Below, in pieces: positions 10,548 to 36,971 of a stretch of DNA of 40,677 nucleotides. The position numbers and the translations under genes were made by a program. Within the stretch, counting starts at the first letter, position 1. The number at the start of each line of letters is the position of its first letter. Source of the DNA: Polaromonas sp. (GTDB lineage Bacteria; Pseudomonadota; Gammaproteobacteria; Burkholderiales; Burkholderiaceae_C); NCBI GenBank assembly GCA_046593295.1, contig JBKJOH010000338.1, positions 1 through 40,677 of the forward strand. Direction: 5' to 3'. A model generated the notes under the pieces. The model was not told where the DNA came from. It saw only the letters and a list, made by a program, of their open reading frames with translations, and did no database searches.

Positions 10548-10665
10548 TTGACCTTCACACAAAGGTGCCTTGATGACACCCACGACATAGATGCCTCGTC
10601 AAAAGGTTCGCTGCCTCGATGTCGAGTTGATCGGAGGCGCTTGGCCGTCTTGATAGACTCACTCA

Positions 10666-10737
10666 ATGACTGAAGAGCCCAAGCAGCACACCCCCATGAT
10701 GCAGCACTACCTGCGCATGACTTTACAAGGCGTATGA
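10666..10737 (+). pseudogene. mutS: Orphan 5' end of mutS at the left junction (MTEEPKQHTPMMQHYLRMTLQGV*)
   Basis: Hand translation gives the MutS N-terminal motif HTPMM..Y. Preceded by TGATAGACT (extended -10-like) 6 nt before the ATG. Not in the ORF track. Confidence 0.85.
10687..10701 (+). repeat. Left att core
   Basis: CACACCCCCATGATG, 14/15 identical to 34401-34415. Confidence 0.85.
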
Positions 10738-10769
10738 ATGCTGGAGATATGCCTGTAAGTCATGCGCCG

Positions 10770-10788
10770 AGTCCCCCTTTGGTCCCCA
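10770..10788 (+). promoter_or_regulatory. Putative integrase arm-type sites, left arm
   Basis: AGTCCCC and GGTCCCCA spaced 11 bp apart, matching the pair at 34232-34250. Confidence 0.6.
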
Positions 10789-10804
10789 ACGATCGTGTGG
10801 ACAA

Positions 10805-11389
10805 ATGACGGCACTTGACGGCGCCACAGCCCACGACAAAGCGGCCCTCGCAGCCTACCCACCACTGCTAGCCCACATCCTGTCTGGCAAGGAATTCGGA
10901 CCTCTGCTTGGCAGCGCCGACAGGGCAAAACATCAGGCTGAGTGGCGTGACTTGATCCGCGACTTGGCAGGACTGCCGCCCTCGTCAGAACAGCTCGCAG
11001 AACGCTTCCACACGCAGTGGCACGTCTGCCATCACTTCCTGCGCGAGCTCGTGGATAACGACGACCTGCTGATCGACATGCTCTGGGTCTGGCTGCCTCG
11101 ATACGTTGGGCCAGACTTGGTGCTCTATCGCGGCGAGAACATCGACCGCTTTGAGGCCCGGCGCATCGGCACGGCATGGACCGACAAGCAAGGGACTGCC
11201 GAGATGTTCGCCCGGGGCCTCAATGCCGTCGGCAAGGGCGGCGTGGTGCTGCGCGTTACAGCCCCCTCCACCGCGATCATTGCAGGGCCATCAAAGCACT
11301 CGCTCTACCTGGGTGAATCCGAGTTCACCATCGACACGGGTAGGCTCGCGGGGATCGAAGCCATCGCGCGCTTCGGTCGCATTTGCTGA
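10805..11389 (+). CDS. Hypothetical protein with ADP-ribosyltransferase-like motifs
   Basis: LYRGE...GTAWT...AEMFA...GESEF follows the R-S-E ART motif order. Confidence 0.55.
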   Translation: MTALDGATAHDKAALAAYPPLLAHILSGKEFGPLLGSADRAKHQAEWRDLIRDLAGLPPSSEQLAERFHTQWHVCHHFLRELVDNDDLLIDMLWVWLPRYVGPDLVLYRGENIDRFEARRIGTAWTDKQGTAEMFARGLNAVGKGGVVLRVTAPSTAIIAGPSKHSLYLGESEFTIDTGRLAGIEAIARFGRIC

Positions 11390-11555
11390 TGGATTGCCAT
11401 GTCGCGCTCAACTTGGGCAAGGGCAAACTGTCGCTGACCGTGCGGCGCTCTTGACCGAACTTCCAAGCCGACGCACCCGCCTGTCATTGCTCGACTTGGA
11501 CCTATTGACTTGCTCGGTCCCATCGAGCGAAATGCCTTTGAACAGGGAGGCACCC

Positions 11556-11825
11556 GTGGGACAGATTCGATTGTCATTTCGCAGTCTTGGGCCAAAGCTA
11601 GCCGCGGCCGCTCTCTTCGCCTTTTTAATTTACTTCCTTGAATCATCAATGATCAAGTCAGGAGCATCAGCTATCAACGCAAATGCCAACGAGCTCGCGG
11701 CCATTAGCCGAGACTGCAACGATTTGGCCGCGCGGAACTCCCGAGATTTGAACGACAAGAATCAGCTTGGAGCCCAGTGCATCAGGGACCGCATGGCAAG
11801 CTTGGGCAAAAAAACTTCTCCCTAA
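11556..11825 (+). CDS. Small single-pass membrane or secreted hypothetical protein
   Basis: GTG 11556 with RBS GGGAGG 5 nt upstream, hydrophobic LAAAALFAFLIYFL, two cysteines downstream. Confidence 0.5.
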   Translation: MGQIRLSFRSLGPKLAAAALFAFLIYFLESSMIKSGASAINANANELAAISRDCNDLAARNSRDLNDKNQLGAQCIRDRMASLGKKTSP

Positions 11826-11987
11826 TCTGTCGTCAACTCCCACTCAGCACGCGAAACGATACGAAGCCCACAACAGTAGCCACGTTGGAGAGCCTGAGAA
11901 GATGACACCGACACATAAAATCAGTAAGTTACTTTGGGCTGAACGGATTCCGAGCTGCGCTTGGACAAAACAACTAAAAGGATATTC

Positions 11988-12512
11988 ATGAGCGCGACTT
12001 CCAACCTAGTATTGATCGCGGCGATCGTCGGAGTTGCCGCCGTTGGATTGCTGGTGCTCAAAGCCAAGCTGGCGTCATCGGGCGCAGGGTCGGAGACCGC
12101 AAAAAATCGGTTCAAAGCCAAGCCACTGCTGACCCCCAACGAACTCGAATTCCTCGGGCGCCTTGACGCCGCAGTTCCCGAGCTTCGGATTTGCCCTCAG
12201 GTGGCCATGGGGTCGATCCTCGATCCCGATGTGCCAAGAAGCAATGGCAAGGCCTACATGCGGCTGCGCGGCATGTTCGCTCAGAAATTCGTGGACTTCG
12301 TCGCGCAGGATCGCAAGACAGGCGCTGTGGTCGCCATCATCGAGCTCGATGACCGAACGCACAAGGCCGACAAGGACGCCAAGCGCGACGCGATGCTGGC
12401 CAGCGCGGGATACAAGACGGTTCGCTGGCAGTCCAAAGCAAAACCGGACGCCGCAGCGATCCGCGCAGAGCTCATGCCGGCATCGCAAACTGTGCAAACC
12501 AACAAACCGTGA
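11988..12512 (+). CDS. DUF2726 domain protein with N-terminal membrane anchor
   Basis: LLTPNELEF, PQVAM, VDFV, IELDDRTH, RDAMLASAGY. RBS AAGGA before ATG 11988. Confidence 0.85.
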   Translation: MSATSNLVLIAAIVGVAAVGLLVLKAKLASSGAGSETAKNRFKAKPLLTPNELEFLGRLDAAVPELRICPQVAMGSILDPDVPRSNGKAYMRLRGMFAQKFVDFVAQDRKTGAVVAIIELDDRTHKADKDAKRDAMLASAGYKTVRWQSKAKPDAAAIRAELMPASQTVQTNKP

Positions 12513-12591
12513 CTAGGCGTCAGAAGACGATCAAGCTCCCCGCCTCGGCGTCTGCACGCTGCATCTCATTGATTTGAGCCTCGTAGCCCCA

Positions 12592-13467
12592 TCAATCGGA
12601 TGAATCGTCCCTCTTAGCCTTCGCCTTCATCGGCAATGAGCCTTGCTGGCTGCCAATGGATTTTTCGGCCAACCGTCTTTGGGTGTCCGCACGGATCGCG
12701 TGCTCGTGCTTTTCCATGTGAGCGATGAGAGCAAAGGCATGGGCATTGGCCTCCTTCGCGGCGAGAGCTTTGAGCATGCGGTATGGCGTGTCACCCATGG
12801 AAACATGGAATGGATCAGCTCCTGCCTGCACGAGGTAAACGAAACTGGTGCCCTCCTCATCGTTCCATGTCTCGCTGTCTCTACACAGGTAAGACAGCGC
12901 GGTCTCCCCGCGGTAGTTTGTTGCGGTTGGGTCAGCTCCGTGCTCAAGGAGCCAGCGCACGCCCCTCGGATCGGAATATGGCTTTCGTTTGGTCGCTGCC
13001 AGAAGGTGAAGGGCAGTCATACCGCCCACATGCCTGCGATTGATGTCAGCCCCTCCCCAAACCAGGAAGCGGATCAACCCGAAATCGAGCTGCTCGAAGT
13101 GCCTGGTCCGTCCATCAAAGCTTACAGCCTCGGCCAGCAACGGCATGTCTAGAAAATTTATGCTCAACAGTTTGAGCGCGATAGCCGCCCCGAAAACTTG
13201 TTCTTGCATGTGAGCACAGGCCACCTTTTCAAGTTCGGCAGGCTTGTCCCTGAGCTTTGCAAGCTGCTCAACGTATTCCTGAGCCCAGCCCGTCTTCAAG
13301 GCCATCGCGACGGCATACTCGCAAGCCAAGCCCCACGTTTCGTCATCGTCGAAGATTTCGCTCTTGTTCGCTTCGGTCAAAAACATCTGGGACGAAAGAA
13401 TTTCATCGTCGCTCAGGCTAATGCGGAAGGCTTCTATCTGCTTCATCATCATTGTTGGATTCTTCAT
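12592..13467 (-). CDS. Ankyrin-repeat protein
   Basis: GADINRRHVGGMTALHL, GADPTATNYRGETALSY, GADPFHVSMGDTPY. Confidence 0.8.
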   Translation of the reverse strand: MKNPTMMMKQIEAFRISLSDDEILSSQMFLTEANKSEIFDDDETWGLACEYAVAMALKTGWAQEYVEQLAKLRDKPAELEKVACAHMQEQVFGAAIALKLLSINFLDMPLLAEAVSFDGRTRHFEQLDFGLIRFLVWGGADINRRHVGGMTALHLLAATKRKPYSDPRGVRWLLEHGADPTATNYRGETALSYLCRDSETWNDEEGTSFVYLVQAGADPFHVSMGDTPYRMLKALAAKEANAHAFALIAHMEKHEHAIRADTQRRLAEKSIGSQQGSLPMKAKAKRDDSSD

Positions 13468-13475
13468 GAAAACCG

Positions 13476-15443
13476 TTAGCCCAACAGTTGATTGAATGCC
13501 ATGAAAATCTGCTCAAACCGGTCCAGAGTTGCATTGACGGCAGGCGTGTCGGCATCTAAAAGTGACGGATTTTCCAAAAGCCAACGAGATGCTCCGAAGT
13601 GATCGAACTCCGCAACAGACGCAGGCATCATTTTGAACAACGCCTCCGCCTTCTTGACGATACGCGGTGTGGGAGCCGCAGCCATCAATGCCTCCTTGAC
13701 CACCACACTGGCAACAGGCGGCTTGTATGCCCCATTGAGCATCTCGACGAACAGGTCGGCCTCGAAGAGATCTTCGACATCCGCTTCACTCTGCGCAGTG
13801 AAATCCGCGCAGGTATAGAAGTGCCCAGCTTTCAAAATCTCGGCCTTCTTCAAATTTTCGATCTTAGTCTTGTCACCGTTCGCAATGTCTGAGAGCACCG
13901 CCATATTGATACGATTGCCGCCAAAAAGCCTCACGAATGGCGCGAGCTTATCGATGCCACCCGATGGGCATAACGTCCATTTCGGATCAATGCCTACTCG
14001 GCCTCGCTTAGTCAGCGCTTGGGAGACGACTTTCAAGTAAAGAATGTCCGACGGTCCTTCGACAAGCCATGTGTTCGCGCCGATAAAAAGCGACTGTGTT
14101 ACTTCATAGCCTAGCGCACCTTGGAGAGGGAAAAGCGTGTCGTCGCTAACCTCAAGAACGTCCGAACGCACCTTCGTTCCTTTAACCTCTGTGCGCTTGC
14201 CAGACTTCTCAATAATTACGTCCTCCACGATGCGGACATCGGCGAGCCGATCCATGGGCACCATAAATGGCGAATGCGTGGTGAAGATCACTTGGTGGTC
14301 AGGCAGCAGCCGCTCGACGATATAGCGCAGCAAATCGCCTTGCGCCTTTCCATGCAAGGTTAGGCCAGGCTCATCCAGCAAAATGATCGCGTTGGTATTT
14401 CCGGGCGTCTTCTTTAGCTGCTTGAACTGAGCAAGAAACGAGAAGAACCATACAAAGCCCGCGCTGCGCTCCGACAACGGAAGCGTAGCCTTGTGATTGG
14501 TGTTCTTGATCCGGATGTCGGCCACCATGCCGGTATTGAAAGGGACGGGATCTTTCGGCTTGGCGTTATCGATCTCGATGACAACTTCTAATGCATTGTT
14601 CTGGCTCCAGAACTGGAAGATTTCCTCAGTTATTTCGTTGCTAGCCGCCTCGCATTTGGCCTTGAGCTCCTCGCGTCGGTCCACGTTCTTCAAGTCTTCA
14701 AGAGTGGTTCCCGCGTATTCGAGGAAGTCGAGAAAGATTTTGTCCCCAACCGAAACCGCGTTTTGCTGTTTATCGAGCTGCAATTTCTCAATCGAGACCA
14801 TGCCCGACATGCGCTCGAAGTGCGACGTGAAAAAGAACTTGGGTTGCCTTGCAGATAGGATGTCGAGCACTGCCTTGACGAAGCTCGAATCCCTGCACGT
14901 TTTGATATCCTGCAAGAGGAGTTCCTGCTTTGGCGTTCGCGCGGTCAGCCCCGAAAGGGCCTTGTCAGCAGCAGGCCCATCGCTCACGCCGTGAAGGACA
15001 TTGCGTTCGGTTGCGTCGAGGGCATGCTTACTCAGCATATTTTCCAGAACTTTTGCGCTATCGATTTCAATTTCCGAGATGCGGCAGTCGTCGTCATACC
15101 TAAATCCAAAGTGGGTCTGGAAGGTATCGCCTTTGAGAACCCCTGGGCCAAAGCGCTTTTCAACAGCATCTTTGTCCGGACCTTCAAGTCGCCACCACGT
15201 CCGAATAACCTCTGCTGACCCGCTAGGGTGTCGGTCGTCGAATCGTGTCGAAAAACGCCTTGGGTAATCGATGACTTCGTCAAATTCGAACGGCTGGGAT
15301 GGCTTGAGGCCGCGTATAGCACTGAGGAGCGCTGTCTTGCCGGCTTCGTTCTTGCCAACCAGGCAAGTGAGGCCGTCAATCTCAAATTCTTCGCTGTCTT
15401 CCACGGACCGATAGTTCTGGACGCGGACTTTTGTGAGCTTCAT
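13476..15443 (-). CDS. OLD-family ATP-dependent nuclease (ABC ATPase + TOPRIM)
   Basis: Walker A GKNEAGKT, ERSAG signature, ILLDEPGLTLH, TTHSPF, TOPRIM LVEGPSD and DVEDLF. RBS GGAGG. Confidence 0.88.
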   Translation of the reverse strand: MKLTKVRVQNYRSVEDSEEFEIDGLTCLVGKNEAGKTALLSAIRGLKPSQPFEFDEVIDYPRRFSTRFDDRHPSGSAEVIRTWWRLEGPDKDAVEKRFGPGVLKGDTFQTHFGFRYDDDCRISEIEIDSAKVLENMLSKHALDATERNVLHGVSDGPAADKALSGLTARTPKQELLLQDIKTCRDSSFVKAVLDILSARQPKFFFTSHFERMSGMVSIEKLQLDKQQNAVSVGDKIFLDFLEYAGTTLEDLKNVDRREELKAKCEAASNEITEEIFQFWSQNNALEVVIEIDNAKPKDPVPFNTGMVADIRIKNTNHKATLPLSERSAGFVWFFSFLAQFKQLKKTPGNTNAIILLDEPGLTLHGKAQGDLLRYIVERLLPDHQVIFTTHSPFMVPMDRLADVRIVEDVIIEKSGKRTEVKGTKVRSDVLEVSDDTLFPLQGALGYEVTQSLFIGANTWLVEGPSDILYLKVVSQALTKRGRVGIDPKWTLCPSGGIDKLAPFVRLFGGNRINMAVLSDIANGDKTKIENLKKAEILKAGHFYTCADFTAQSEADVEDLFEADLFVEMLNGAYKPPVASVVVKEALMAAAPTPRIVKKAEALFKMMPASVAEFDHFGASRWLLENPSLLDADTPAVNATLDRFEQIFMAFNQLLG

Positions 15444-15502
15444 GACAACCTCCTCTTATTGATGTGCTTTTGATTCAAAAACTAATATCACTGCGAACTT
15501 TT

Positions 15503-15856
15503 TCAGAACTCGTCCACAGTGCTGCGTTTTGGCGGGGGGACATGTTCATTGAACGCCCAGCCCTCGTCAGTCATCTCGCCGAAGACATGCAGTTCCTCAG
15601 CATCTTCGACATTCATATCCTTGCACCCGTTGTAGATGCTGTAATCCAGCTCGTAAGTCACCGCAATCTGTGAACCAGAGATATCGACATCGGTTATTCG
15701 GACCGAGTAGACATAAGCTCGCTGGTCGATATGCGATACGTCGTGGTCGAGCGCGTCCGAAAAATTGCTCTCCTGGTCGTTGATAAGCGACTGCAGGAGC
15801 TCTTCCATCTCCCGCGCAGTCGGCAGAGCCGGAACAATAATCTTGCTCATGCCCAC
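15503..15856 (-). CDS. Small acidic hypothetical protein
   Basis: 117 aa ORF starting 3 nt after the DUF499 stop. 24 D/E against 7 K/R by hand count. Confidence 0.7.
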   Translation of the reverse strand: MGMSKIIVPALPTAREMEELLQSLINDQESNFSDALDHDVSHIDQRAYVYSVRITDVDISGSQIAVTYELDYSIYNGCKDMNVEDAEELHVFGEMTDEGWAFNEHVPPPKRSTVDEF

Positions 15857-15859: not shown

Positions 15860-18757
15860 TCAGTCTTCGAACGATCGGTTCTTGAACTTCAACTGATCGC
15901 AGTTCTCGCGCACAGCGCGCTGGATGCCATCGTCAAATCCACTTGGCAGCTCAGCCTCGATCTCGATGGCAATGCGCAGCTTCACACCGGGCTTGTTGAG
16001 AAGCATGAGAACTTCCTCGGCCACGTCGGAAAACTGCACCTTGGCCTGATTCGGGTTTAGCTCCACGGAGCCAAAGAACATCGTTTTCTTGGTGGCGCCG
16101 CTACTCGTGCCGAGGCCCGATCCAGCGCGCGTCGCCCCCCCGCTTGTGGAGCCCGTGGAGCCGCCGGCCGCGCCAGTTGAAGTGGTCGAAGTCCCGCCTG
16201 TGGTTTCGCCCTTAGAGCCGCCACCCGCGCTGGCTCCGCCCGCTTCCTTATTCTTGGTCTGAGCCTCTCTCTCTGCTGCCTCCGCCGAAAGCTCGGCGGC
16301 GAACGCTACCGAAACCTTGGGCTCAATCAGTAGAAGCGAGTCGTCAAGGATGGGGGTAGTGCTCTGCGCGAAGTTGAAACCTTGAAAACGGCCCTCTTCG
16401 CGGCCATAGGCAATGCCAAAGAAGTCGCGAGAAGAGACGCCAGCCGCGATGGTGGCCCGCAGCGTGTCGGCATCGCGCAGCCTCGGCAGGTAGAGGTAGC
16501 AGCACGTCTTTTGCCACGTCTCCAACGCGCTGACAGCAGTCGCGTCCTCTTTCCAAAACCACGTTTGCAGCATCTTGGCCAAGTGGATCGGAGCCCACTC
16601 GGTGATCAGCAGCTCGTGCTCTTTGAGCACCTTCTCTATTTCCTCGGTCCGGTTCACCGCGGCCGGATTGATCTGGAAATGGTCCCACTGAATCTCGCCG
16701 ATGCCCTTGCCGGGCTTTGCCTCTTGCAAGGGGGCTAATAGCCACTTGAAGGTCTCACGCACCATGCGTCCCAATGCTTCGTTGGCTTGGTCTAGGCTGG
16801 CCGACGCTTGCTTTGTCTGGTGCCCATCGAGGTTGAGCCGACCCTCCTTCACGTCATCGACGATAGACTTCCATGCAAGCGATGAAGTCACTTGGTCTTT
16901 GAGGCGCGAGATGCTGTCGGTGTCGGGAGCCAAGAAGATCAAACGGTTTTGCTTCTGGCGAGGCTGGTCTCCCCGCCCTTTCAAGATCGCCGTGGCCGCC
17001 TCTATCGCGGGCGACTGCGCGCCCTTGCTGAACGTCGCCTCAGGCGGCAACACCACGAGACGAAGTTGCCAGTCATCCGGCACATCAGACGATGGCGTAA
17101 AAACATGCACACCACCGAAAGTGCCGTTGGCAAACCGCAGCTTTTCCTTGATGAAGGGATACACGTCTTCGCGCAGATCAAAGCGGCGCTTGCGGTCCTC
17201 CATCTCACGTCGTAGGTTGGGACGGGTGTCGAACCAGAAGCGGTTGTTGGCGCTGTTGAGGTATTGCAGTCGGTCCACCAAGGCCCGCACGCCATCCTTG
17301 TAGTGCCCAATCACTTGGCCTGGCTGAACGCATCCCAAGAGAACGCGTTCCAGCTCAATGCCCCGGTGATGCTTGGCCCCTCCAACGGCTCCTGCGTCGG
17401 GGGCAGAGCCCAAGAACACGGCCCGCGCAATACGGCGGCACGCATGAATCGAACCAAACAGCGGACGCGCGTTATCGAGTTCGGTGGTCGCAGCTCGATC
17501 GCCGTCGATATCGCGTTCTAGCACTGGGTCCCATCCCTGCGGCAAGTAATAAATCGCCTCGTTGCGAGTGTCGGAATCGAACAGGGGCAGGCTGCCCGGC
17601 TGAATCATCAAATCGTTGTTGCCCGTCGTCCAAAGGCGATGGATCACTTTGGCCATGAGCTTCAAGACGCCGCGCGTGCGCTGGAAGTTGTCCAGCGACG
17701 ACCAGTCCTCATATAGCCGGTCGAAAACTTCGGGGTGGATTGGGTAAGCGTGCTTCAATCGATCCAAGTAGCCGCTTCCCTGCGCCTCGGGGGGCAGGTC
17801 GCCCGCGTTCGCCGCGTAGAAGTCGGCATACGCTCGGCAAACTTCCTCGGCTGCGAGCCGGTCCGTGACATCGGCAAACAGCCGCCTGCGGACGATCTCG
17901 AAAGCTTCTTCGGTGGCTACTGGCTTCCACAACGCCTGCACCCGCCCGAAGTAGTGCTCCAAGGCCCGCAGAGCCTTCACGCCTTGCTGGCTTCCAGCTT
18001 CCCTGTCCGAGAACGGCAGCGAGGCCAGCAGGATCGCGTTGGGCACGGCCTTCAAGGCTTCGGTGAGCGACTGGATGAAGGAGAGCTGTGTGTCGTAGGT
18101 GCCGCCCGACAAGGTCTTACCCTCTTCGAACTGCGAGACGTAGCGGACCAGCTCGTCCATCAAGATGATGCAAGGCGCACTGCCACCGATGATGTCGGCC
18201 AGCACGCTCTTGCCGGGAGCCGTGCCATCGCGGTCGGCCTCCATCAGCTTGGCGAAAGCGGCCTCGCCGCCCAACTGCCAAGCCAACTCTCCCCAAATAG
18301 TCTTGACGGTCGTCTTGCCGTGCACACGGGGCTTGCTTGCGAGGTCCAACAGGTCCACACCATCGAGCACCGCCACGCGGGCTTTGGGAAGCTCGGTGAT
18401 GCCCGCAGAATCCAATATTGGCGGGATGCCCTGCATCTTACTTGCAGGCGTCACTCCCTTGGCAAGGTGATAGACGGCAAGCAGTGTGTGGGTCTTGCCG
18501 CCACCAAAGGCTGTTTGCAACTGCACGACAGGATCACCGCCCTTGCCCGCGAGCCTTTTGACGACGGAGTCGAGCAGTAGGCGCATGCCCTCGGTGATGA
18601 AGGTTCGCTGGAAGAACAAGGCCGCATCTTGATATTCAGGCGTCGCGATGCCCTGATGCACCTTGGAGATGTCAGCAGCGAACTCGGCTTGCTGGAAGGT
18701 GCCCTTCAAGACATCTTCGTGCGGCACGGCGATTTCACGCCAAGGTTTTAGACTCAT
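15860..18757 (-). CDS. DUF499 AAA+ ATPase
   Basis: [54 protein letters not shown]-rich linker before the C-terminal domain. Confidence 0.92.
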
Positions 18758-18769
18758 TTTTACGCTCCC

Positions 18770-21628
18770 TTAAAGATCGAAATTCGCTTGCGAACCCAGG
18801 TGCCCCTTCTCGTGAGAGGCGGCTTCGATCCCAGTCCAAGACGTGATCAACTCGTTGTAGGCTCGTGCGTCATCTGCCCATCCCTTGCGTTCGCAAAGGG
18901 TGTAGAGCCGATAGGCCAAATTTCTGATGGGGTCAGCCCTTTGTGGCATTCCCGCGAGTAGTGCTCCGGCCGCTGACTCGCCCGCGTCTCGCAGAGCTCG
19001 AACCAGTTGATGCAAGGCCTCCCATACAGGCGTGTTGTTGTCGTTCTCCGGCAGCCACTCGATCGGATATTCCGCTGGCTTGAGCAAACGCACCTTCCCA
19101 GCCGTGGCCTCCACAACGCCCGCATTCTTCACATGATCGACTGAAGTTCCCTTCGCTCGCGTGAGAACGTCGGCTTTTCCAAACTCTCCGGCAGCCCAAC
19201 CCTGTTCATCGAACCAGCTTAAACAGAATTGGGTGTCCGCATCGAACTCGTCAGCACCCTCGGTTAGCATGCGGTTGATAAGTGTTAGAGCTGTGTGAAC
19301 AGTCATAGGGCTGCCGTCAGCTTCCAGCACGGCGGAATATCTAGAGAAGATTGCCATGCCCGGCCCAATAACGGCCTGGGCCAAGTCCACAGGTGCCACA
19401 GGCGAAATTCCTTCTGCTCCACCAATCATCAACTCCACGGATTCAGCGAGATCGCTTTTCAACTCACGGAGAAAGTCGCGTCGCGAAACGCTTGGGGCAT
19501 TCGAATCGCGTTTACTGCAAACGAGAACAATACTTGATGCCAAAGCATTAGCTCCAAGGCCCCGCATTCGGAACTCCTGCTCGCTTCGCAATGGCCAGGT
19601 TCCCGTAATTGCAAAGCCAGCTCTTATGACCGCCTCTAGGAAAGTTTCCCAGCCAGTGTTTCCCGTCCCTAAGTCTGTTGTCTCGGACTGCTTGAACGCG
19701 TAATAAATAGTAGTCGGATAAGACACATGTGCCTGCTCCGCCAAGCGGCGCATGGCTTGTGTCATACCTTCGAGGAAAAACTTCTCTGCCGCCTCCTTTC
19801 CTCCATGCCTAGCTGGTGTGGCAACTAGCTCGTCCTCTTTTGGGACCGCCACAGTGGCGAAGAGGTCTGGGAAGATGCTCCGCATTGGCTGTCGAAGCCA
19901 GACATAAAAGAAATCCGACAAGTCGGCGTATCCAATGTTGTCGTAATACGGCGGATCGGTTGAAACCACCTTTCCCTGAGTAATTGAGTTATCTGAAGCA
20001 TTCGCTTGTGTGGCTGAACCAGAACTCACATTCCATGGAAGGGTATCGACGCAGTCCGCAATATATTGCACTGCCGGAAGATACCCGCCAACCGTTTCCA
20101 TGAAGATGTTCGCCTCCGGAAAATCCCACGTCATAGATACGGTTTGCTTGCCAAAAAGGTTCATCACTTTTTGGTTGCCTGGGACCCACCTTGTGCACGT
20201 ATTGGAAAAGTCGGAACAGCGATCCAGAGCAAATGCCAAGTAAGTCGCAACAGCTTCCCCGTAAGCACGTGCGCCTGCGCCGCCATCAGCCAATGCATCT
20301 CCCTCGACCCACCCAGCAGCTAGTGCGTCATCTTTAATCTTTATCCGCACGGCCCCAATCAACTCACTAAGAGTGCCCAATCCAACAATTTGCCTAGGAG
20401 TAAAAAGGTCGGCCCAAGTCGAAATTCCATAGTTCCCGACTCGAAAACCAAGCGCCTGCTGAAAGAATGGAATTTCCGGTCGCCATTTAGGTATTGCTGA
20501 TTTGGCTATCCGCTCATGTTCGTCTGATGGCGACAGGTAAACCCTTCGCCGCCCACCTTCAGCAACGATTGCCAAAAGCCTCGTTCCCATCCGACCAGCC
20601 TTGCCCTCGTCCCTGATGTAATCGGCAGGTATTGGCACCCCAGACACTAGACACAAAAAATTCGCACCACGCGCGCCGGCCTTTGTTCCGTCAGATGCGC
20701 CTTTTGGCGCTTTGCCATCCCGAATCTCAAACCGGTATGTATCTCCGTGAACTATGGGATGGACATACGCTTCCTTCCCATCCTTGTTCGAAACGATGTA
20801 GCTCGAAACCAGAGGAACATCAACGTGTGAGAACGCAGGATTAGGACTCTTGACCGTTCTTGCCCATAACCAAGCGATCACAGGTGACTTACCACCACCA
20901 TATTGCGCCGGCATATCAATTTCTGGGTAAAGACGTCCAGTATTCTTGATAGCTTCACCTAATAGCCATCGACCGTAACGCCGAATGTCTTCTGTGAGTC
21001 CTTGATTTCCTGCGTATTGAGTTGTGCGCCCCGCTGGTGCGCCTTTCGGAACCGGGCCAACAGGTTCTTTGCCTGAAAACTTTGGCGGAATTTCAAGCAT
21101 CGCCTTGTTGATCAATACGGCGACAGGATTCAAATCTGACGAATGACTGGAGAGTCCCAGTCTTTGTGCTTCAAGAGGCAAAGCACCACCACCGCCAAAC
21201 GGATCATGGAATTCAGGAACACATTCTGGATTAAAAAGGGTATTGGCTTGTGGATGCGCTTTGTTAAGTTCACAAGTCTCTACCCAGCTCTTTCGAATTT
21301 CCTCGCGGGCTTCAATCAGAAACTTCTGGTTATTCGTATTTTCCCATTTAACAAGGTCTCGGATTAGCTGGAATAGCCGTTCACGTTCGATCTTTGCTTT
21401 TTCTTTGTTCACGCCTCGCCCAAGCGATCTCTCATAACCAGGATCGTTGACCATTTGGGCAAACAGAATCGCTCTCGCTGCGGCCAGAGGGCGCCGAGCC
21501 CACCACAAATGAATACCACGGGGATGGGGCCCAATGCCAGGCATCTTTTCGTATGCGCAAGCTTCATTAATGTCATCCAGTGGCAGAGCGACTTCGATGA
21601 GCTTCTTTGGTGTTTTTATAGGGGTCAT
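18770..21628 (-). CDS. DUF1156 adenine-specific DNA methyltransferase
   Basis: [27 protein letters not shown]-binding DPFGGGG, catalytic TDPPYYDN. Confidence 0.92.
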
Positions 21629-24600: not shown

Positions 24601-25146
24601 GCTGAACAGCGAGAAGGACAGCCCGAACTTCTCGAACATTTCATCCTGCCACTGCTCCACCAGGCTCCCTGGCGACACGATCAAAATACGCTGAGCGTCC
24701 GCTCGCATGAGCAGCTCGCGAATCAGCAGGCCCGCCATGATGGTCTTGCCTGCTCCTGGATCGTCGGCCAGCACATATCGAAGTGGCTGCCGTGGCAGCA
24801 TGGACTCATAGACAGCGGTGATCTGATGCGGAAGCGGCTCCACGTTGGACGTGTGGACCGCCATCATTGGGTCGAACAGGTGCGCGAGGTTGATCCGATA
24901 TGCCTCGGCAGCGAGCTTGAAGTCCGCGCCGTCTGCGTCAAAGCTCCAAGGACGCCCAACCGACGCAATGCTCAGTTCGGATTCGTTCGAGCGGAAGAGC
25001 ACCCGCTCGCCTAGGCGGCCGTCGTCAGCCTTGTAGACGACGGTGACAGCGTTATCACCCAACGGGTCGGCGCTTACCACTCGGACGACTCGTCCCTCCT
25101 CAATGCCAGAGACCAACGCTCCTTTGGCGATGGATTCGAGTTTCAT
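21625..25146 (-). CDS. SNF2-family helicase with C-terminal DUF3883 nuclease-like domain
   Basis: [40 protein letters not shown]-terminal GWDL...IEVKG...TRNE. Confidence 0.92.
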
Positions 25147-26069: not shown

Positions 26070-26260
26070 GAGCCCCTTTCTCGGGCCTCTCGCCCGTCGG
26101 CGAAGCAAGGAATGCGCCGATCAGAAAGAGAATACCACACTCATCATTTTGATTCGGGCTTTTTTGGCCGAGGTTCAGCCCAATTTCTCAGCTAGAACAC
26201 CAAAAAATCTCGCGGGTCGAAACTTGACTTATCGGGACCAAAGTGCCTCATAAAAAATGT

Positions 26261-27268: not shown

Positions 27269-27349
27269 GGTGGCCCCCATATAAATTGCATAAGGCCACC
27301 CTCTCAAAGCGAATGGGCAGTGTCGAGGCCGAATGTCCGATGGAGCCGC

Positions 27350-28303
27350 TCAGAGCGCCACACCACGTCTGCGTCTGGCCGTCTGTTCCGCGCGCAGTAT
27401 GGCAACCCTTCTGGCACCGCCATCGCGCAATTCACGGTCAACGGCACGCGGGGTCGGTTCGATGGAAAAGTCCGCCTCCACCGCCTGCACTGCCTGCTCA
27501 AACTTCTCGGGGCTGTGCGCGGCAGCAACCCAACGGCGAAACATGGCGCCACTTTCGGGCTGGTCAATCCAGCCGAATTCAGATCGGCTCGTGCGCAACC
27601 GCTCCTTGATCACTTCGACCGTCAGGATATTGGCTGTTGCTGCGCCGGGTTCATGGGCGCTGGTTTCCACAAGAGGTTTCAAAAAGTCGTCCGCGACCGA
27701 GTCGCGGGCGGCAGCGGTCCCATGGACCGCTGCGAGATTACTGATGTCAGTATGAAAATCGTATTGATCTCCTTTGGAGATCGTCATTACTGATAGAGAG
27801 GGTGGCGATGGCTCATAAGTCCGCGTGGCTATTGGGTTTCCAAAGGAATCGGATGTCACGTCGTTTGGCAACTTCAAAGGCCCACTGTTCTCTTCTGCCT
27901 TGGCTACTTGCCGTAATTTAAGGGCGGTCTTCTTGCAGATGGGCGACATCGGCAAAGCGAAGCGCAAGCCCTTGGTGGGGTGGTTTTCAATTTCACTCAC
28001 AAGGCCCGCATCGTGCAGCTTCATGAGCACGCGGCAAGCCTCCTTGGCATTCATGGTGTCTGCCGCTCGGCCTTGCGTGGTCGGCACCGTGATCAGGTCT
28101 GCCAGAAACTGGAATGTGATCACGCGCCTACCAAAATGCTTCACTTCGCCGGTCTTGAACGATGCCAGCCATTTCAGTTCGGGATACAAGACGCGCTCGC
28201 GCAGGCCCAAAGTTCGCAAAATATCCCGCTCGTCGCGGTCCATGCTCATGTAGGCCTCTTTCGCGGCGGGTGTTGCTGCGGGCTTAGGGTGGGTTGGCTT
28301 CAT
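27350..28303 (-). CDS. Hypothetical protein of the mobilization operon, possibly DNA-binding or replication-related
   Basis: 317 aa ORF directly after the relaxase with RBS AAGGAG. The N-terminal half looks winged-helix-like; no family recognised. Confidence 0.55.
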   Translation of the reverse strand: MKPTHPKPAATPAAKEAYMSMDRDERDILRTLGLRERVLYPELKWLASFKTGEVKHFGRRVITFQFLADLITVPTTQGRAADTMNAKEACRVLMKLHDAGLVSEIENHPTKGLRFALPMSPICKKTALKLRQVAKAEENSGPLKLPNDVTSDSFGNPIATRTYEPSPPSLSVMTISKGDQYDFHTDISNLAAVHGTAAARDSVADDFLKPLVETSAHEPGAATANILTVEVIKERLRTSRSEFGWIDQPESGAMFRRWVAAAHSPEKFEQAVQAVEADFSIEPTPRAVDRELRDGGARRVAILRAEQTARRRRGVAL

Positions 28304-28330
28304 ATGTCTCCTTTCTGGTCGTTGGGTGGT

Positions 28331-29635
28331 TCAAGGGTGTTTAGGTGCCTTGGGGCGGCTCGGGTCGTTGTCGTTCGATCCGGAGCCATCCGGTCCCTGC
28401 TGGCGTCTAAGCGCAAGCTTTGTCGCCAAATTGGTATTGAGTTGGAGAGGCGGCGCAGCGGGCACTAGGGGTGCTGGCTGTGCAGGCTCGGGTTCGAGGA
28501 TGGGCTGATGCGGAAATGGCGGTTCGGCGGGCGGAATTAACGCCATCGGAATCGCCACGGTGCCCATGGCGCCCGCACTCTCCGCAATGATCTGTTCCAG
28601 CATCGTGCGCTGCCCGGCATCGCGGGGATGCACCGGCATACCCTGCGCGATGGCTTCACGCATCGCCATCAGAATGAAGTCATGCGGGCCACTGAACACG
28701 ATGCTGGTCCAGCCGCGCGAGCACGCAAGGGCCACCATGGCTTTGGCGGCGCGCGCGTGGTTCATTTCGTAGGCAGTGAGCCGGTCGCCGTCGTCGTTGA
28801 TGCGCTCTGGGCGTTTCAGATAAATCACGCTGCCGCGCTGGTGGTGATAAATGTGGCTGACGTCGGGGTCCAGCAAATGCCTGACCATTGCGTCATAGCC
28901 GGGTGTTCGAAGGGCGCGCTTTATCTCGCGTCGCTGCTTCTCATTCGGGTTGTCGCCTGCCCATGCCGTCATGATGGTTGCACCATGTGCGAGGGCATAG
29001 GCATGAGTTGCCAGGTGGGTGCCAGTGTTCAACGGCTCCGGTATGAGCGCCTCTAAGGACTGATCCTCGGTTTTTTGGTTGGTTTGCATTCCTTTCTCCT
29101 TGGGATGGGTGGGTATTGACTGCTCGATGGACTGAACAACGTCCGGTGGTTCTGGCTTTCGATCATTCCTGGGTTGGCGCTTTTTCTTGACGAGGTTGAC
29201 GCGGCGTAATCCGAATTGCTCCTCGATGCGGGCAAGGCTTCGCTCTGCTTTGAAGCGGTCATTGCTATCGGGCACCGTCTTGCCATCCGGCCCGATGCGC
29301 AGGCACGCGATGTGGATATGGTCATGGCCCGTGTCGTTGTGCCTGAAAATCACATGGGGACACGACTGGTAGCCGAGGTCTTTCAGAAAGATGTCTGCGA
29401 TACGGTTCCACGCTTCCTCGTCAAGCGGCGGGTCTTCGGGCGCCGCCGACAGCATCAGGTGGGCCACCGCCCGCGACAGGGAGGGACGTAGTTTTCTGAA
29501 CTGTCCGAACTCTTTGGATAGCTGGCGCGGCGTGCGGCCTGCGAGGTTGCCGCCGATGATGACGCGGTGATCGTCATCCATGTTGTAGGATAGAAGGCCC
29601 TCAATGCCGTGGCCCTTGATAATCTTGGAAATCAT
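28331..29635 (-). CDS. MOBP-type relaxase with C-terminal LPD7-like domain
   Basis: N-terminal tyrosine (LLSYN), HLMLS, RHNDTGHDHIHI HUH motif. C-terminal DDGDRL...SRGWTSIVFSG. Confidence 0.88.
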   Translation of the reverse strand: MISKIIKGHGIEGLLSYNMDDDHRVIIGGNLAGRTPRQLSKEFGQFRKLRPSLSRAVAHLMLSAAPEDPPLDEEAWNRIADIFLKDLGYQSCPHVIFRHNDTGHDHIHIACLRIGPDGKTVPDSNDRFKAERSLARIEEQFGLRRVNLVKKKRQPRNDRKPEPPDVVQSIEQSIPTHPKEKGMQTNQKTEDQSLEALIPEPLNTGTHLATHAYALAHGATIMTAWAGDNPNEKQRREIKRALRTPGYDAMVRHLLDPDVSHIYHHQRGSVIYLKRPERINDDGDRLTAYEMNHARAAKAMVALACSRGWTSIVFSGPHDFILMAMREAIAQGMPVHPRDAGQRTMLEQIIAESAGAMGTVAIPMALIPPAEPPFPHQPILEPEPAQPAPLVPAAPPLQLNTNLATKLALRRQQGPDGSGSNDNDPSRPKAPKHP

Positions 29636-30000
29636 GGTCGCCCCCGGTTCTGAGGGGGTTCATCGCCGGTGGCACCGATAAGCTGTAACCGGAGAATGCG
29701 CACCTGCACCGCAAGTTGATTGATGACATCGACATCAATGCCGTGGGCATTGCCTGCGTTGATGGCGGCTGCAATCTGGTTCAGATTGGAGCCGACACGT
29801 GCCAGCTCAGCATATTGACTTCGACTGATTTCCGATGGCGGCTGTTCGATCTTTTTTGTGAGCGCAACACGCCGCAAGAAAGTAGACATCGGTAAACGCG
29901 CCACACGCGCCTTGATCTCTAACGCCGCACGCTCGTCGTCGGTCAGATAGAGGTCAAATTTCTTTCGTAATTCGGCTGCTGAAAGCAGTCTGTTTCCCAT
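29632..30000 (-). CDS. mobC: Relaxosome accessory protein MobC (ribbon-helix-helix)
   Basis: LYLTDDER...MSTFLR and ELARVGSNLNQIA. RBS GGGAG before ATG 30000; 4 bp overlap with the relaxase. Confidence 0.88.
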   Translation of the reverse strand: MGNRLLSAAELRKKFDLYLTDDERAALEIKARVARLPMSTFLRRVALTKKIEQPPSEISRSQYAELARVGSNLNQIAAAINAGNAHGIDVDVINQLAVQVRILRLQLIGATGDEPPQNRGRP

Positions 30001-30030
30001 TTTGATACTCCCCTGCGGAAGGCAGCAAGC

Positions 30031-30075
30031 GCAACCAAACACACCGGCTCGCCGGGGGGTGGTTGCATGTCTTGC
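30031..30075 (+). other. Putative oriT, nick predicted between 30074 and 30075
   Basis: Inverted repeat GCAACCA...CCGGCTCGCCGG...TGGTTGC followed by ATGTCTTG|C. Same layout as the RP4 oriT (inverted repeat, then CTATCCTG|C). Directly upstream of mobC. Confidence 0.75.
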
Positions 30076-32493: not shown

Positions 32494-34101
32494 CTAGGCG
32501 GCCTCTTTTCGCGGTCGTCCTGTCCTAGGTTTGGGCGGCCGGCACTGATGCGGCTCGATCGGTGGCATGGGCGGCCAGTCTGCGGGCTTCAACGAGTTGT
32601 AGACGTTGGGCGCCCTCGACAAGATCGACTGCTCGATCTTCATCATCCATTCGCGCAGCAAACTCCATTCGGCCTGCGTGTAGACATCGGTCACCGAGGA
32701 ATGCGCGTGGTTTAAGAACCGGCTCTTGATGCTGTCGGGCACCTCCAACGCGGTCATCACCGCGCCAAAGGAGCGTCGCAAGTCGTGTCGGTTGAGGCGC
32801 TCTACACCGATCTCTTCGCGGAGGTCATCGAGCAAATCGGTCGCGTCCGAATAGTGTCCGCTGTTGGACAGCTTGCTGCGGGCCGGGAAAACGAATCTCC
32901 TGGACTTGTCGCCGAATCCTCTTCGAACGGCCTCGGCTGCCGACGCCGCCTGCCGGCGTTTAAGAAGCTCCAAGGTCATGGGCGTGATGGGCATGCGGTG
33001 GTTGCGCCCGTTCTTGGTCTTGTAGAAGAAGACGTAGGGACCCCAGTCGGGATGATCTTTGAGCACGACGTGGCTCGTGGATCGGCGCCCAATCCCCACA
33101 CCTCCCACCTCCGTCAACAGCTCGCCCCAGACCAACCCCGCGTGCTCGCTTTTCCGGCATCCCCAGAGCAGCATCAGCATGAGGTAGTGGACGCCGGTCA
33201 AGTTGTCGTTCATGTCCTTCTTCGACCAGCAGGCCTCCAAGAAACGCCCGAGGTCCTGAGTGGGGCGCAGCGGATTGCGCTTGCCCTTCTCCTCGCGCTC
33301 GGCGTCGATCATTTCCTTGGAGCGGTAGTGCCCGTTGAGGCTAAGCGTGCGAAATGGATTGCCTTTGAGCGTGGGCTCGCGGTTTTGCGCGTCGGCCCGA
33401 ATCTTCTCGTTCTCGATATACCAATCAATCGCCCGCGAGGGCCAGCGGAAAGCTTGCTCGGTGGCAGTCGGCGTCGCGTCCTTGGTTTTTAAAAACTTCT
33501 CGATGATGTCGGCGTCGGAGACCTCGCGCACTTTGCGGTCCGACCATTTCCATTCCTCATGCCGCTTCATCACCCGGTCGTAGACCTTCAAGGTCTCCAC
33601 CTTGGCAGGCTTGACGGTGCGGGTGGTCAGGTGCGCGCGGTAGGCCAGCATCGCCTGCTTCAACGTGACCTCGGCCGCATTGGCTTCCCTGGCGAGAGCG
33701 TTGGGGTTTTGGCCCGTCTCGATCATGGTCCGAGCCAAATTAGCCGCTTTGGCCCGAGCATCCTGTATCTTGTCGAAGTCCGCGACATTGCCGACTTTGG
33801 AGAGCATGGATTTGCCCATGACCTTGCGGCGCAGGATGAAGGTCTTGTTGCCCGCCACTTTGAGGCCGAAGCCCGGCGGAGCGTCGCGGCTGGTGTCCCA
33901 TAAGATGTAGCTTTCGGGCTTGGGGACCGGTTTTTCCGCGAACGTCAACTTGCCATCGGCGCCGTAGCCCACGGGCGGGCGCTCAAGTTTTCGAAGCTTG
34001 CAGTAGTTGTCGTTGAGCTCGGCGCGCCATGCAGGCGCGCGCTTCGACGCTGCGGTCCCCACGGGGGATTCGGATTCTTGGCTCGATTCGTCAAGCTGCA
34101 T
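32494..34101 (-). CDS. Tyrosine recombinase/integrase with N-terminal arm-binding domain
   Basis: Catalytic set GCRKSE, KTKNG, HDLRR, LNH, DVY. N-terminal LWD...PGFGLKV. Confidence 0.93.
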   Translation of the reverse strand: MQLDESSQESESPVGTAASKRAPAWRAELNDNYCKLRKLERPPVGYGADGKLTFAEKPVPKPESYILWDTSRDAPPGFGLKVAGNKTFILRRKVMGKSMLSKVGNVADFDKIQDARAKAANLARTMIETGQNPNALAREANAAEVTLKQAMLAYRAHLTTRTVKPAKVETLKVYDRVMKRHEEWKWSDRKVREVSDADIIEKFLKTKDATPTATEQAFRWPSRAIDWYIENEKIRADAQNREPTLKGNPFRTLSLNGHYRSKEMIDAEREEKGKRNPLRPTQDLGRFLEACWSKKDMNDNLTGVHYLMLMLLWGCRKSEHAGLVWGELLTEVGGVGIGRRSTSHVVLKDHPDWGPYVFFYKTKNGRNHRMPITPMTLELLKRRQAASAAEAVRRGFGDKSRRFVFPARSKLSNSGHYSDATDLLDDLREEIGVERLNRHDLRRSFGAVMTALEVPDSIKSRFLNHAHSSVTDVYTQAEWSLLREWMMKIEQSILSRAPNVYNSLKPADWPPMPPIEPHQCRPPKPRTGRPRKEAA

Positions 34102-34131
34102 GGCTAGCCTCTCGAAAAAGCATGCGATTTG

Positions 34132-34250
34132 GTGGCAGGGGGAGTTCTGACCTTGCCCAAGCCCTTGTCACGCATCACATTTTTTGTGGCAGGGGGAGTA
34201 AGATAGAGCATATCAGAACATAGAGGAAGGCGGTCCCCACCGGATCCCCG
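34132..34250. promoter_or_regulatory. Right-arm repeats (putative integrase arm or Xis sites)
   Basis: Perfect 14 bp direct repeat GTGGCAGGGGGAGT at 34132-34145 and 34186-34199. GGTCCCCA and GATCCCCG at 34232 and 34243. Confidence 0.65.
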
Positions 34251-34328
34251 TAGACCATGTTGGCAAACGACGGAACTTGAAGGCGAACGAAGGAGCTTTG
34301 ATGCCTTCACAGTGAGATAAGTGATTGA

Positions 34329-36971
34329 ATGAAAACAGAAAAAGAGCAGATTGACGAGAAAGAGATAGAACCCCATGGGGAGGCATCAGGGGCCGTTAAA
34401 CACACGCCCATGATGGCCCAGTACCACGCCATCAAGGCGGAGTACCCTGAGACGCTGGTTTTCTACCGCATGGGCGATTTTTACGAGGTGTTTTATGCCG
34501 ATGCTGAAAAGGCCTCGCGCCTGCTTGGCATCACGCTGACGCGGCGTGGCCAGTCGGCTGGTGAGCCGGTTGTCATGGCGGGTGTGCCTTTTCATTCGCT
34601 TGAAGGCTATCTGGCCAAGCTCATCAAGCTCGGTGAGTCGGTCGCGATTTGTGAGCAGGTTGGCGATGTGGGCGCGAGCAAAGGCCCGGTGGAGCGCAAG
34701 GTGGTGCGCGTCATCACGCCGGGTACGCTGCTTGACCCCGAGCTGCTGGCTGACAAAACAGAATCTATCTTGCTGGCCGTACACCAGGGCGCGCGCAACA
34801 CCTGTGGGCTGGCGTGGTTGAGCGTAACGCAGGGCCAGATTAACCTGGCGCAGTGCGCTAACGATGAGCTGGAAAGCGCTCTAGCACGCATTGCCCCCAG
34901 TGAGCTGATTTACAACGTCGATGTCACCCCTGCTTTTGAGTTGCGTTTGAAGGCGCTGCGCTGCGCGGTCAGCGCCCGCCCAGCCTGGCAGTTTGATGCC
35001 GCACTGGGCGCGCGGCGTTTGCTGGAGCAGCTCAAGGTCGCGTCGCTGGCTTCATGGAATGCTGAGGGTTTGAGCGAGGCGCACGCTGCCGCATCCAGCC
35101 TGCTGGGTTATGCAGAACACACCCAGGGCCGCACCCTGCCGCATGTGCAGGCTCTGGCCGTGGTGCGCTCGGGTGAGTTGATTGAGCTGCCAGTCACCAC
35201 ACGGCGCAATCTGGAGTTGACGCAAACCCTGCGCGGCGAAGATTCACCGACGCTGTTTTCGTTGTTGGATACTTGCGCGACTGGCATGGGCAGCCGCACC
35301 TTGAAAAGCTGGCTGCTCAACCCCAGCCGTGACCGCAGCCAAGCCGCCAGCAGGCTTGAAGCCATCACGTATTTACGCAGTGGCCCACAGCAAACCTTGC
35401 GTGCGCAACTCAAGGGCGCCAGCGATGTAGAGCGCATCACCGCGCGCATCGCGCTGCGCCAGGTGCGGCCACGCGAGCTGCTGGCCTTGCAGTTGACGCT
35501 ACAGCGTTTGCTATTAAATAAGGAGCTTGTCACGCCCGTATCTATTGGGCTACAGCCACTTTTAGCCTCTATTTTTGCCGATTTGAAGCCGCCGGAAGGC
35601 TGCGAATCGCTCATCAGCCGCACCATCCTGCCCGAGCCCGCTGCGCTGGTGCGTGACGGCGGCGTTATCAATCATGGCTGCGATGCAGAGCTTGACGAGC
35701 TGCGCGGCATACAGACCAATTGCGATGCATTTTTGCTGGACCTTGAAGGCCGCGAAAAGCTGCGCACCGGCATCACCAACCTGCGCGTGCAGTTCAACAA
35801 GGTGCATGGCTTTTACATTGAAGTCACGCAGGGCCAAGCCAGCAAGGTACCTGACGACTACCGCCGGCGCCAGACCCTGAAAAACGCCGAGCGCTACATC
35901 ACGCCCGAGCTAAAAAGCTTTGAAGACAAGGCCCTGTCTGCGCAAGAGAGGGCGCTGGCGCGCGAGAAGTTTTTATATGAGCAGTTGCTTGACCAGTTGC
36001 AGGCCTACATTCCCGCGCTCAGTCGCCTGGCACGCGCCCTCGCCGCACTGGATGCGCTGTGTGCGTTGGCCGAGCGCTCGCTCACGCTGAACTGGGCCGC
36101 GCCGGTGTTTGTCAAAGAGCCGTGTATTGACATCACACAAGGCCGACACCCGGTGGTTGAAGCGCGGCTGCTGGAGACGGGTGCAACAGCATTTATCGCC
36201 AACGATTGCAGCATGAGCGCCAAACAGCGCATGCAGGTGATTACCGGCCCGAACATGGGCGGCAAGTCAACCTACATGCGCCAGGTTGCCCTCATCGTGC
36301 TGCTGGCCAGCATGGGCTCATACGTGCCCGCAGCCAGTTGCAGGCTGGGGCCGATTGATGCCATCCACACCCGCATAGGCGCGGCAGATGATGTAGCCAA
36401 CGCGCAATCGACCTTCATGCTGGAGATGCTGGAGGCCGCGCAGATTCTCCACGCCGCTTCACCTACGTCTCTGGTGCTGATGGACGAGATTGGGCGCGGT
36501 ACCTCGACCTTTGATGGCCTGGCACTGGCGGGGGGCATTGCAGCGTACTTGCACAACAAGACGCAAGCCTTGACGCTGTTTGCCACGCATTATTTTGAGT
36601 TGACCGAGTTCCCGGCCAAACACCACGGGGCGATTAACGTCCACGTCAGCGCGGTTGAGGCGGGTAGCGATATCGTGTTTCTGCATCACATAGAGCCCGG
36701 CCCGGCGAGCAAAAGCTACGGCATTGCGGTGGCCAAACTGGCAGGCGTGCCTGCTGCGGTGGTTAACCACGCACGCCACGCTTTAAGCGCGCTAGAAGCC
36801 CAGCAAATTGATGCACGAGCGCAGGTAGATTTGTTTGCCGCCCCGCCTGACGCGGAATCCATAGCACCTAGCGCCGTAGAATCAGCGCTTGCAGGGATTG
36901 ACCCCGATAGCTTGAGTCCGCGCGATGCGCTGGAGACTTTGTATAAGTTAAAGAAGCTGATGAATCGCTGA
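34329..36971 (+). CDS. mutS: DNA mismatch repair protein MutS, with an element-derived 5' end
   Basis: [54 protein letters not shown]. The actual start may be 34329 or 34410. Confidence 0.97.
34401..34415 (+). repeat. Right att core
   Basis: CACACGCCCATGATG (HTPMM codons of mutS). Confidence 0.85.
35507..35563 (+). repeat. REP/MITE-like repeat, copy 4, in-frame inside mutS
   Basis: TTTGCTATTAAATAAGGAGCTTGTCACGCCCGTATCTATTGGGCTACAGCCACTTTT, an AT-rich patch in a GC-rich gene. Encodes [19 protein letters not shown]. Confidence 0.9.

What the first reader, a model, noticed from the sequence alone, without database searches (positions are those of the whole stretch)
10651..34415. Mobile element splits mutS at HTPMM and swaps its promoter and N-terminus: a possible mutator switch
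Seen: an orphan MTEEPKQHTPMM start at 10666 with an extended -10-like TGATAGACT, a 14/15 direct repeat 23.7 kb away, and an in-frame replacement start ([29 protein letters not shown]) divergent from the integrase. Precise excision would rebuild [19 protein letters not shown] in frame. Known, from recollection: an excisable mutS element linked to hypermutation was reported in Vibrio with relatives in Betaproteobacteria, so the target is probably not new. Inference: mutS expression here depends on element state.
Basis: partly seen in the sequence, partly recalled or inferred. Interest (0 to 1): 0.75.

Follow-up and report, generated by a model that had tools for sequence, protein, structure and literature searches.

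The report
Defence island re-heads mismatch-repair gene mutS
A 23.7-kb mobile element carrying a known anti-phage gene set sits inside the first codons of the DNA-repair gene mutS and supplies a new start for it, a design described in 2017; its exit is predicted to leave the gene whole, so it is likely not an on/off mutator switch, though it may swap one MutS amino acid.

Summary
In detail: orphan start at 10666, 14/15 repeat 23,714 bp apart, in-frame replacement start facing away from an intact tyrosine integrase. Relatives with the empty site carry a homologue of the orphan start on an intact mutS. The element is a mobilizable island (relaxase, MobC, ArdC) with Hma defence cargo. This is the arrangement of Chu et al. 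2017 (PMC5296598), whose table includes Comamonadaceae; this scan also noted it before on other DNA. The mutator reading is not supported: all 40 in-register crossovers rebuild an 863-aa MutS, and three non-Vibrio elements in that paper excised without a scar. An expression effect is untested. New detail: the codon after HTPMM differs between the two ends here and in 10 of 23 element pairs, and changes by 2-3 bases in all 11 differing sister pairs, which suggests a mismatch-tolerant crossover that swaps this MutS residue. The orphan promoter looks leaderless; the element's start overlaps an IHF-like site.

The parts
10651..10659 (+). Extended -10-like motif TGnTAGACT, 6 nt before the orphan ATG; likely a leaderless mutS promoter (inferred)
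   Evidence: Same motif 6 nt before the mutS ATG in G136, G139, G141 and 7 nt before it in G068, G074; 12 copies of the 9-mer genome-wide
10666..10737 (+). Orphaned mutS start, MTEEPKQ-HTPMM, running on into element DNA to a stop after 23 codons
   Evidence: 88% over 65 bp to the intact start of G136, 81% over 53 bp to G139; empty-site contig in run X5
10687..10723 (+). Left attachment site (attL-like): HTPMM codons, codon CAG, then the family's element-end signature
   Evidence: Signature found in 8 of 204 genus genomes, 1 of 401 in an order sample, the window itself, 6 metagenome loci
10771..10823 (+). Left-end motif arrays: GTCCCC pair (10771-10787) and 11-bp-spaced arm-like repeats (10800-10823); likely integrase or excisionase binding sites (inferred)
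   Evidence: the GTCCCC pair occurs twice in the window, once at each end, and 7 times genome-wide
10805..15856 (.). Cargo: unknown ORF 10805-11389, DUF2726 11961-12512, ankyrin protein 12592-13467, OLD/AAA ATPase-type protein 13476-15443, ORF 15503-15856
15860..26108 (-). WYL regulator (25143-26108) and HmaA-HmaB-HmaC anti-phage operon
   Evidence: PADLOC HmaA, HmaB, HmaC full-length at E=0; Pfam WYL, SNF2, NOV_C, DUF1156, DUF499
26261..30042 (-). Mobilization module: ArdC (26261-27307), unknown ORF (27350-28303), relaxase (28331-29635), MobC/NikA-like (29632-30042)
   Evidence: same block in the same order in the mutS elements L111 and L122
31787..32428 (-). HTH_17 protein, likely excisionase
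   Evidence: Pfam; follows the integrase in most related loci
32494..34101 (-). Tyrosine integrase, 535 aa, with arm-binding domain and intact R-K-H-R-H-Y residues
   Evidence: 22 of 24 relatives lie head-to-head with mutS
34233..34330 (+). Right-end motif arrays: GTCCCC pair (34233-34249), arm-like repeats (34262-34296), IHF-like site (34318-34330) overlapping the new ATG
   Evidence: IHF-like motif in 20 of 22 integrase-adjacent starts against 3% of 110-bp genome windows (consensus recalled)
34329..34400 (+). Element-supplied mutS start, 24 codons
   Evidence: homologous starts in L103, L104, L124, L125
34401..34420 (+). Right attachment site (attR-like): HTPMM codons, codon GCC, CA
34329..36971 (+). 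Intact mutS, 880 aa
   Evidence: TIGR01070 983.7 bits, cut-off 641.7

Best explanation
This is a 23.7-kb integrase-bearing, likely mobilizable defence island inserted in the HTPMM codons of mutS, which keeps the gene intact by supplying a new in-frame start and, by inference, a new promoter. It uses the conserved HTPMM DNA as a dependable landing site in many Betaproteobacteria. Shown: both ends, the orphan start, empty-site relatives, the gene content. Inferred: the integrase and HTH_17 protein excise it as a circle; the relaxase lets a helper conjugative element move it; excision restores a full 863-aa MutS under a leaderless extended -10 promoter; the crossover region tolerates mismatch at the codon after ATGATG, so integration or excision can change that one residue. 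Any effect on mutation rate would be through mutS expression level or that residue, not through a frameshift.
For: Ends: homology to other elements starts at 10683-10689 and ends at the right site. Empty site: G136, G139 and G141 carry a homologue of the orphan start on intact mutS; a 564-bp contig of run X5 runs from the HAD gene through 10590-10701 (about 90% alike) straight into the first 24 bases of the mutS body. Site specificity: 22 of 24 integrase relatives are head-to-head with mutS, the other 2 cut by contig ends; 6 of 6 in a separate family sample of 300. Movement between hosts: left end 85% identical over 1,525 bp to that in G615, whose MutS is about 50% identical; right end 78% over 1,990 bp to L103, MutS about 55%. 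Frame: 40 of 40 in-register crossovers give 863 aa; the longest off-register exact match near the core is 4 bp. Precedent: intact mutS after excision in E. coli 536, B. multivorans CF2, P. putida F1 (PMC5296598).
Against: No circle or empty site was seen in this strain; only assembled contigs were available and near-identical X1 contigs show the integrated ends only. The two ends differ at 3 bases right after the repeat, which in strict tyrosine recombinases would hinder excision. No VirB4-type gene was found in this 76%-complete genome. Promoters are inferred from motifs; the consensus scan found none. The Vibrio att sequences are in a figure I could not see, so I cannot say what caused its 2-bp scar or exclude the same here.
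Confidence: 0.8

Rival explanations
1. Mutator switch: element state sets mutS level or integrity enough to change the mutation rate.
For: The two starts differ in kind: a leaderless-looking extended -10 against a start overlapped by an IHF-like site. A scar-based switch exists in V. splendidus 12B01 (PMC5296598).
Against: No frameshift predicted; no scar in three other hosts; relatives live with many different mutS starts, suhB lying within 400 bp in only 16 of 114, which suggests tolerance; no expression data (one search listed no RNA holder, which is no evidence either way).
Confidence: 0.12
2. The element is locked in: the mismatched codon lies inside a homology-requiring overlap, so it no longer excises and the new start is fixed.
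For: CAG against GCC at the codon after the repeat; many relatives keep element-type starts with no integrase beside them (IHF-like motif in 27 of 114 genus starts; G021 and G162).
Against: 10 of 23 pairs show such a mismatch, 5 of 9 on single contigs, so it is common; integrase, excisionase-like gene and both end arrays are intact; IntDOT recombines mismatched overlaps (PMC2817482, abstract).
Confidence: 0.15
3. The variable codon is just a tolerant surface residue that drifts by point mutation; att mismatches arose from a fixed crossover point and different donor hosts.
For: Eleven other columns change more often on the tree; sister pairs average only 90% identity; selection for a few allowed residues can force multi-base differences; 13 of 23 pairs match.
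Against: All 11 differing sister pairs differ by 2-3 bases although single-base routes exist, against 387 of 796 elsewhere (P about 4e-4). The left end keeps the host-type codon in G203 (G214, 97% identical and empty, has the same upstream DNA and codon) but the right end keeps it in G192 (against G226) and probably here (against X5, G139, G141), which one fixed crossover point does not explain.
Confidence: 0.4

Closest known systems
Mobile elements in the HTPMMQQ motif of mutS (Chu et al. 2017, mBio, PMC5296598; read parts 1-4 of 6, Table S2, text of Figs S2 and S4; figures not visible)
   Same: Same site, orphan host start, new start and upstream region from the element, integrase within 300 bp of mutS. 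Table S2 lists Acidovorax, Comamonas, Delftia and Ottowia with elements of 29-41 kb.
   Different: No frameshift scar predicted, unlike V. splendidus 12B01. The integrase is only 20-24% identical, in the catalytic domain alone, to E. coli mutS-element integrases, which were not found at E<=1e-50 in 301 genomes of this family (no positive control in that set). Relaxase plus Hma cargo. A swap of the codon after HTPMM is not in the parts I read; they say only that the precise location varied.
dusA-associated integrase islands (Farrugia et al. 2015, PMC4482086; passages read); SXT in prfC (recalled)
   Same: Integration in the 5' end of a housekeeping gene with a replacement 5' end and putative promoter; imperfect att repeats.
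   Different: Different target gene; relationship of the integrases not tested.
Hma anti-phage system (PMC11232893, passages read; PMC8565338, search listing only)
   Same: HmaA helicase with NOV_C nuclease, HmaB, HmaC, in order; often beside integrases.
   Different: Headed here by a WYL gene and followed by an OLD/AAA-type gene; activity untested.
IntDOT of CTnDOT (PMC2817482; abstract read)
   Same: Arm-domain tyrosine integrase that recombines sites with mismatched overlap regions; model for the codon swap.
   Different: Mechanistic analogy only; homology not tested, and its targets are not protein codons in the abstract read.

Membership tests
mutS HTPMMQQ elements (Chu 2017) | Integrase within 300 bp of mutS | tested here: met
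   227 bp between the divergent starts
mutS HTPMMQQ elements (Chu 2017) | Orphan upstream start homologous to the mutS start of close relatives | tested here: met
   G136, G139, G141; X5 contig
mutS HTPMMQQ elements (Chu 2017) | Insertion point in the HTPMMQQ motif with repeats at both ends | tested here: met
mutS HTPMMQQ elements (Chu 2017) | Integrase similar (E<=1e-6) to that of V. splendidus 12B01 | tested here: inconclusive
   The Vibrio protein was not held. Stand-ins from E. coli mutS elements gave 20-24% over about 185 aa, E about 1e-4 in a small database
mutS HTPMMQQ elements (Chu 2017) | Excision to a circle | not testable with these tools
   Only contigs available; no attP seen
V. 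splendidus 12B01-type mutator switch | Excision leaves a frameshift in mutS | tested here: not met
   In silico only: 40 of 40 in-register products in frame; off-register match near the core at most 4 bp
Integrative mobilizable element | Integrase, excisionase, relaxase and accessory protein, without a mating-pore system | tested here: met
   Pfam and NCBIfam hits; no secretion-system hit among the element ORFs scanned
Integrative mobilizable element | Origin of transfer and helper-driven transfer | not tested
   Region 30043-30390 looked at, no oriT assigned
Hma | hmaA, hmaB, hmaC co-oriented and full length | tested here: met

The most novel reading that the evidence does not exclude
This integrase clade recombines across a mismatched core centred on one MutS codon, so each visit of an element can rewrite the residue after HTPMM (Q, A, V, R, T or M) and the promoter together; the elements thereby shuffle mutS alleles through Comamonadaceae and tune mismatch-repair fidelity without ever breaking the gene.
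Probability: 0.15. Interest if true: 0.65.

Novelty: new member of a known kind. Interest (0 to 1): 0.33.

Why it matters
It adds a defence-carrying mobilizable member to a site family for which my searches found one paper. It argues that the mutS site is mainly a conserved landing pad and not a general mutator switch. If the codon swap is real, it is a case of site-specific recombination editing a residue of an essential repair protein, and it gives a simple test of Chu et al.'s open question whether scarless elements change mutation rate.

Tried and rejected
Consensus promoter scans: 0 sites at both starts. Arm-like motif by itself: 3 matches against 2.45 expected, not evidence alone; my stricter paired-arm pattern matched neither end. 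Left-end signature in viral contigs: 0; in an order-wide sample: none besides the window, 1 of 401. Excised circle among the 6 metagenome hits: none has this integrase upstream. Phage and plasmid collections hold only integrases under 25% identity, so no free form was found. No RNA holder listed. Laying contigs on the right end was swamped by other organisms' mutS. Of 12 of 151 genus genomes with two or more HTPMM sites, G068, G074, G117 and G125 proved to be longer mutS 5' duplicates or second copies and were left out of the pair table. I first placed the crossover right of the variable codon; the X5 contig and G192 contradicted a fixed side. A centre further right (dyad around GTAC) was considered and not excluded: left ends of G618 and G619 match mutS for 16 and 14 bases past ATGATG. 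A prophage reading was rejected: no phage structural families among the ORFs scanned.
Full report
Observation. An ATG at 10666 opens MTEEPKQHTPMMQHYLRMTLQGV-stop, preceded by TGATAGACT at 10651-10659. A 14/15 copy of the HTPMM codons lies 23,714 bp on, at 34401, inside an intact 880-aa mutS whose first 24 codons start 227 bp from a divergent tyrosine integrase. The repeat count alone is not far from chance; the context makes the case.

Host and empty site. Named loci titled Polaromonas have MutS 81-84% identical to this one, so the host is probably of that group of Comamonadaceae (inference). In the closest genomes the site is empty: G136 reads MTAENKL-HTPMMQQYHAIK and matches window 10647-10711 at 88%; G139 and G141 read [19 protein letters not shown]. 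A contig of run X5, about 90% alike, runs from the HAD gene through the orphan start into the mutS body. X1 contigs are identical to the window, show only the integrated ends, and may not be independent. So the orphan start is the pre-insertion start.

The element. From the right end: integrase with intact catalytic residues, HTH_17 excisionase-like gene, two unknown ORFs, MobC, relaxase, an unknown ORF, ArdC, WYL, HmaA-B-C, a small ORF, an OLD/AAA-type protein, an ankyrin protein, DUF2726 and an unknown ORF. Both ends carry a GTCCCC pair and arm-like repeats. Homology to other elements starts at 10683-10689. Close integrases occur in 7 of 203 other genus genomes and 6 of 300 family genomes; 22 of 24 loci from the species collection and all 6 family hits face mutS (these sets overlap in part). 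Ends 78-85% identical sit in hosts whose MutS is only 50-55% identical, which shows transfer between distant hosts. No VirB4-type gene was found in this 76%-complete genome; mutL is present.

Is it a mutator switch? In V. splendidus 12B01 excision removes 2 bp; in three other tested hosts it left mutS intact, and the authors proposed a promoter switch (PMC5296598). Here all 40 in-register crossover points tested give an 863-aa MutS, and the longest off-register exact match near the core is 4 bp. The swapped residues precede the conserved MutS models and the stretch that aligns with solved E. coli MutS. The two upstream regions do differ in kind. The orphan has TGnTAGACT 6 nt before the ATG, kept at 6 nt in G136, G139, G141 and 7 nt in G068, G074, the spacing expected of a leaderless transcript (textbook knowledge, recalled). 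The element's ATG overlaps an IHF-like site found in 20 of 22 integrase-adjacent starts against 761 of 25,284 genome windows (consensus recalled); its plain role would be in recombination. A difference in mutS level is therefore possible and unmeasured.

The variable codon. The ends differ at the codon after ATGATG (CAG left, GCC right). In 23 left/right pairs gathered by hand, 10 differ and 13 match; on single contigs 5 of 9 differ; 14 pairs are split over contigs and some may join different elements of a tandem array. Nine matches are the commonest codon, CAG; four are rarer ones. In 114 genus mutS starts the position takes 10 codons and 6 residues. On a tree of 112 of them (2 dropped as short) it changes 29 times, rank 12 of 378 columns; the flanking residues show none, but my search patterns demanded most of those, so that contrast is partly built in. 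Among 38 sister pairs 11 differ there, all by 2-3 bases, against 387 of 796 other amino-acid-changing codon differences (P about 4e-4; kin are not independent). The host-type codon stays at the left end in G203 and probably G090 and G156, but at the right end in G192 and probably here. The simplest reading is a mismatch-tolerant overlap, perhaps TG-NNN-CA, resolved either way, as IntDOT allows (PMC2817482, abstract). I put about 0.55 on the swap and much less on a functional effect. Left ends of G618 and G619 match mutS further on, so the crossover may wander.

A revolving door. suhB lies within 400 bp of mutS in only 16 of 114 genus starts. G142 has suhB abutting mutS, and window 8205-8240 resembles that start in decayed form. 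The TGATAGACT-type start also ends an acquired segment in G068 and G074. So the 'host' start here is probably itself an earlier replacement (inference).

Comparison and novelty. The anatomy is that of Chu et al. 2017, whose Table S2 includes four Comamonadaceae genera. Searches for mutS with HTPMM, and for 'within mutS' or 'into mutS' with integrase, returned that paper alone; searches added no second study of these elements; subscription journals are mostly missing from the library. Its sequence figures were not visible to me and may bear on the crossover claims. The integrase is distant from E. coli mutS-element integrases, so two clades may share the site; the Vibrio protein was not available. 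The 5'-replacement design is also known for dusA (PMC4482086). This scan noted the same design on a phage before.

Verdict. Real, well delimited, a new member of a known kind; scarless excision likely; mutator switch unsupported; a codon-swapping crossover is the one lead worth a bench test. Interest 0.33.

Noticed in passing
window 37026-40227: Three-gene candidate defence operon PDC-M28ABC directly after mutS, at lower GC; in G136, G135, G203, G130 and G192 the next conserved gene (40270 on) follows mutS closely, so this is a second insertion, outside the element.
   Followed up: partly
window 8205-10650: HTH plus DUF6036 nucleotidyltransferase pair and a HAD hydrolase between suhB and the orphan start are variably present in close relatives; 8205-8240 looks like a decayed older mutS start.
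   Followed up: partly
window 10805-11389: ORF without Pfam, PADLOC or NCBIfam hit, found just inside the left end in G021, G203 and G615 (65-84% identity); by eye it has R...S...ExE motifs like an ADP-ribosyltransferase (recalled, untested).
   Followed up: no
window 31631-31654: A third arm-like repeat inside the element, just past the excisionase-like gene; internal regulatory site or relic end.
   Followed up: no
L144 (G021:C79): Tandem elements in mutS: three HTPMM sites, two different integrase types or remnants.
   Followed up: partly
L168 (G074) and L166-L167 (G068): An ABC-transporter segment brought a new short mutS start and left a longer mutS 5' copy upstream, decayed in G074; no homologue of this integrase was found in these genomes at E<=1e-60.
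   Followed up: partly
G000:C146:6293-6685: A second mutS 3' fragment, 78% identical, at a contig end; likely a contaminating relative in the bin.
   Followed up: partly
L163 (E. coli 536, NC_008253.1): The integrase of the E. coli 536 mutS element is annotated as a 249-aa truncation lacking the catalytic half, yet Chu et al. report excision in this strain; another recombinase may act in trans.
   Followed up: no
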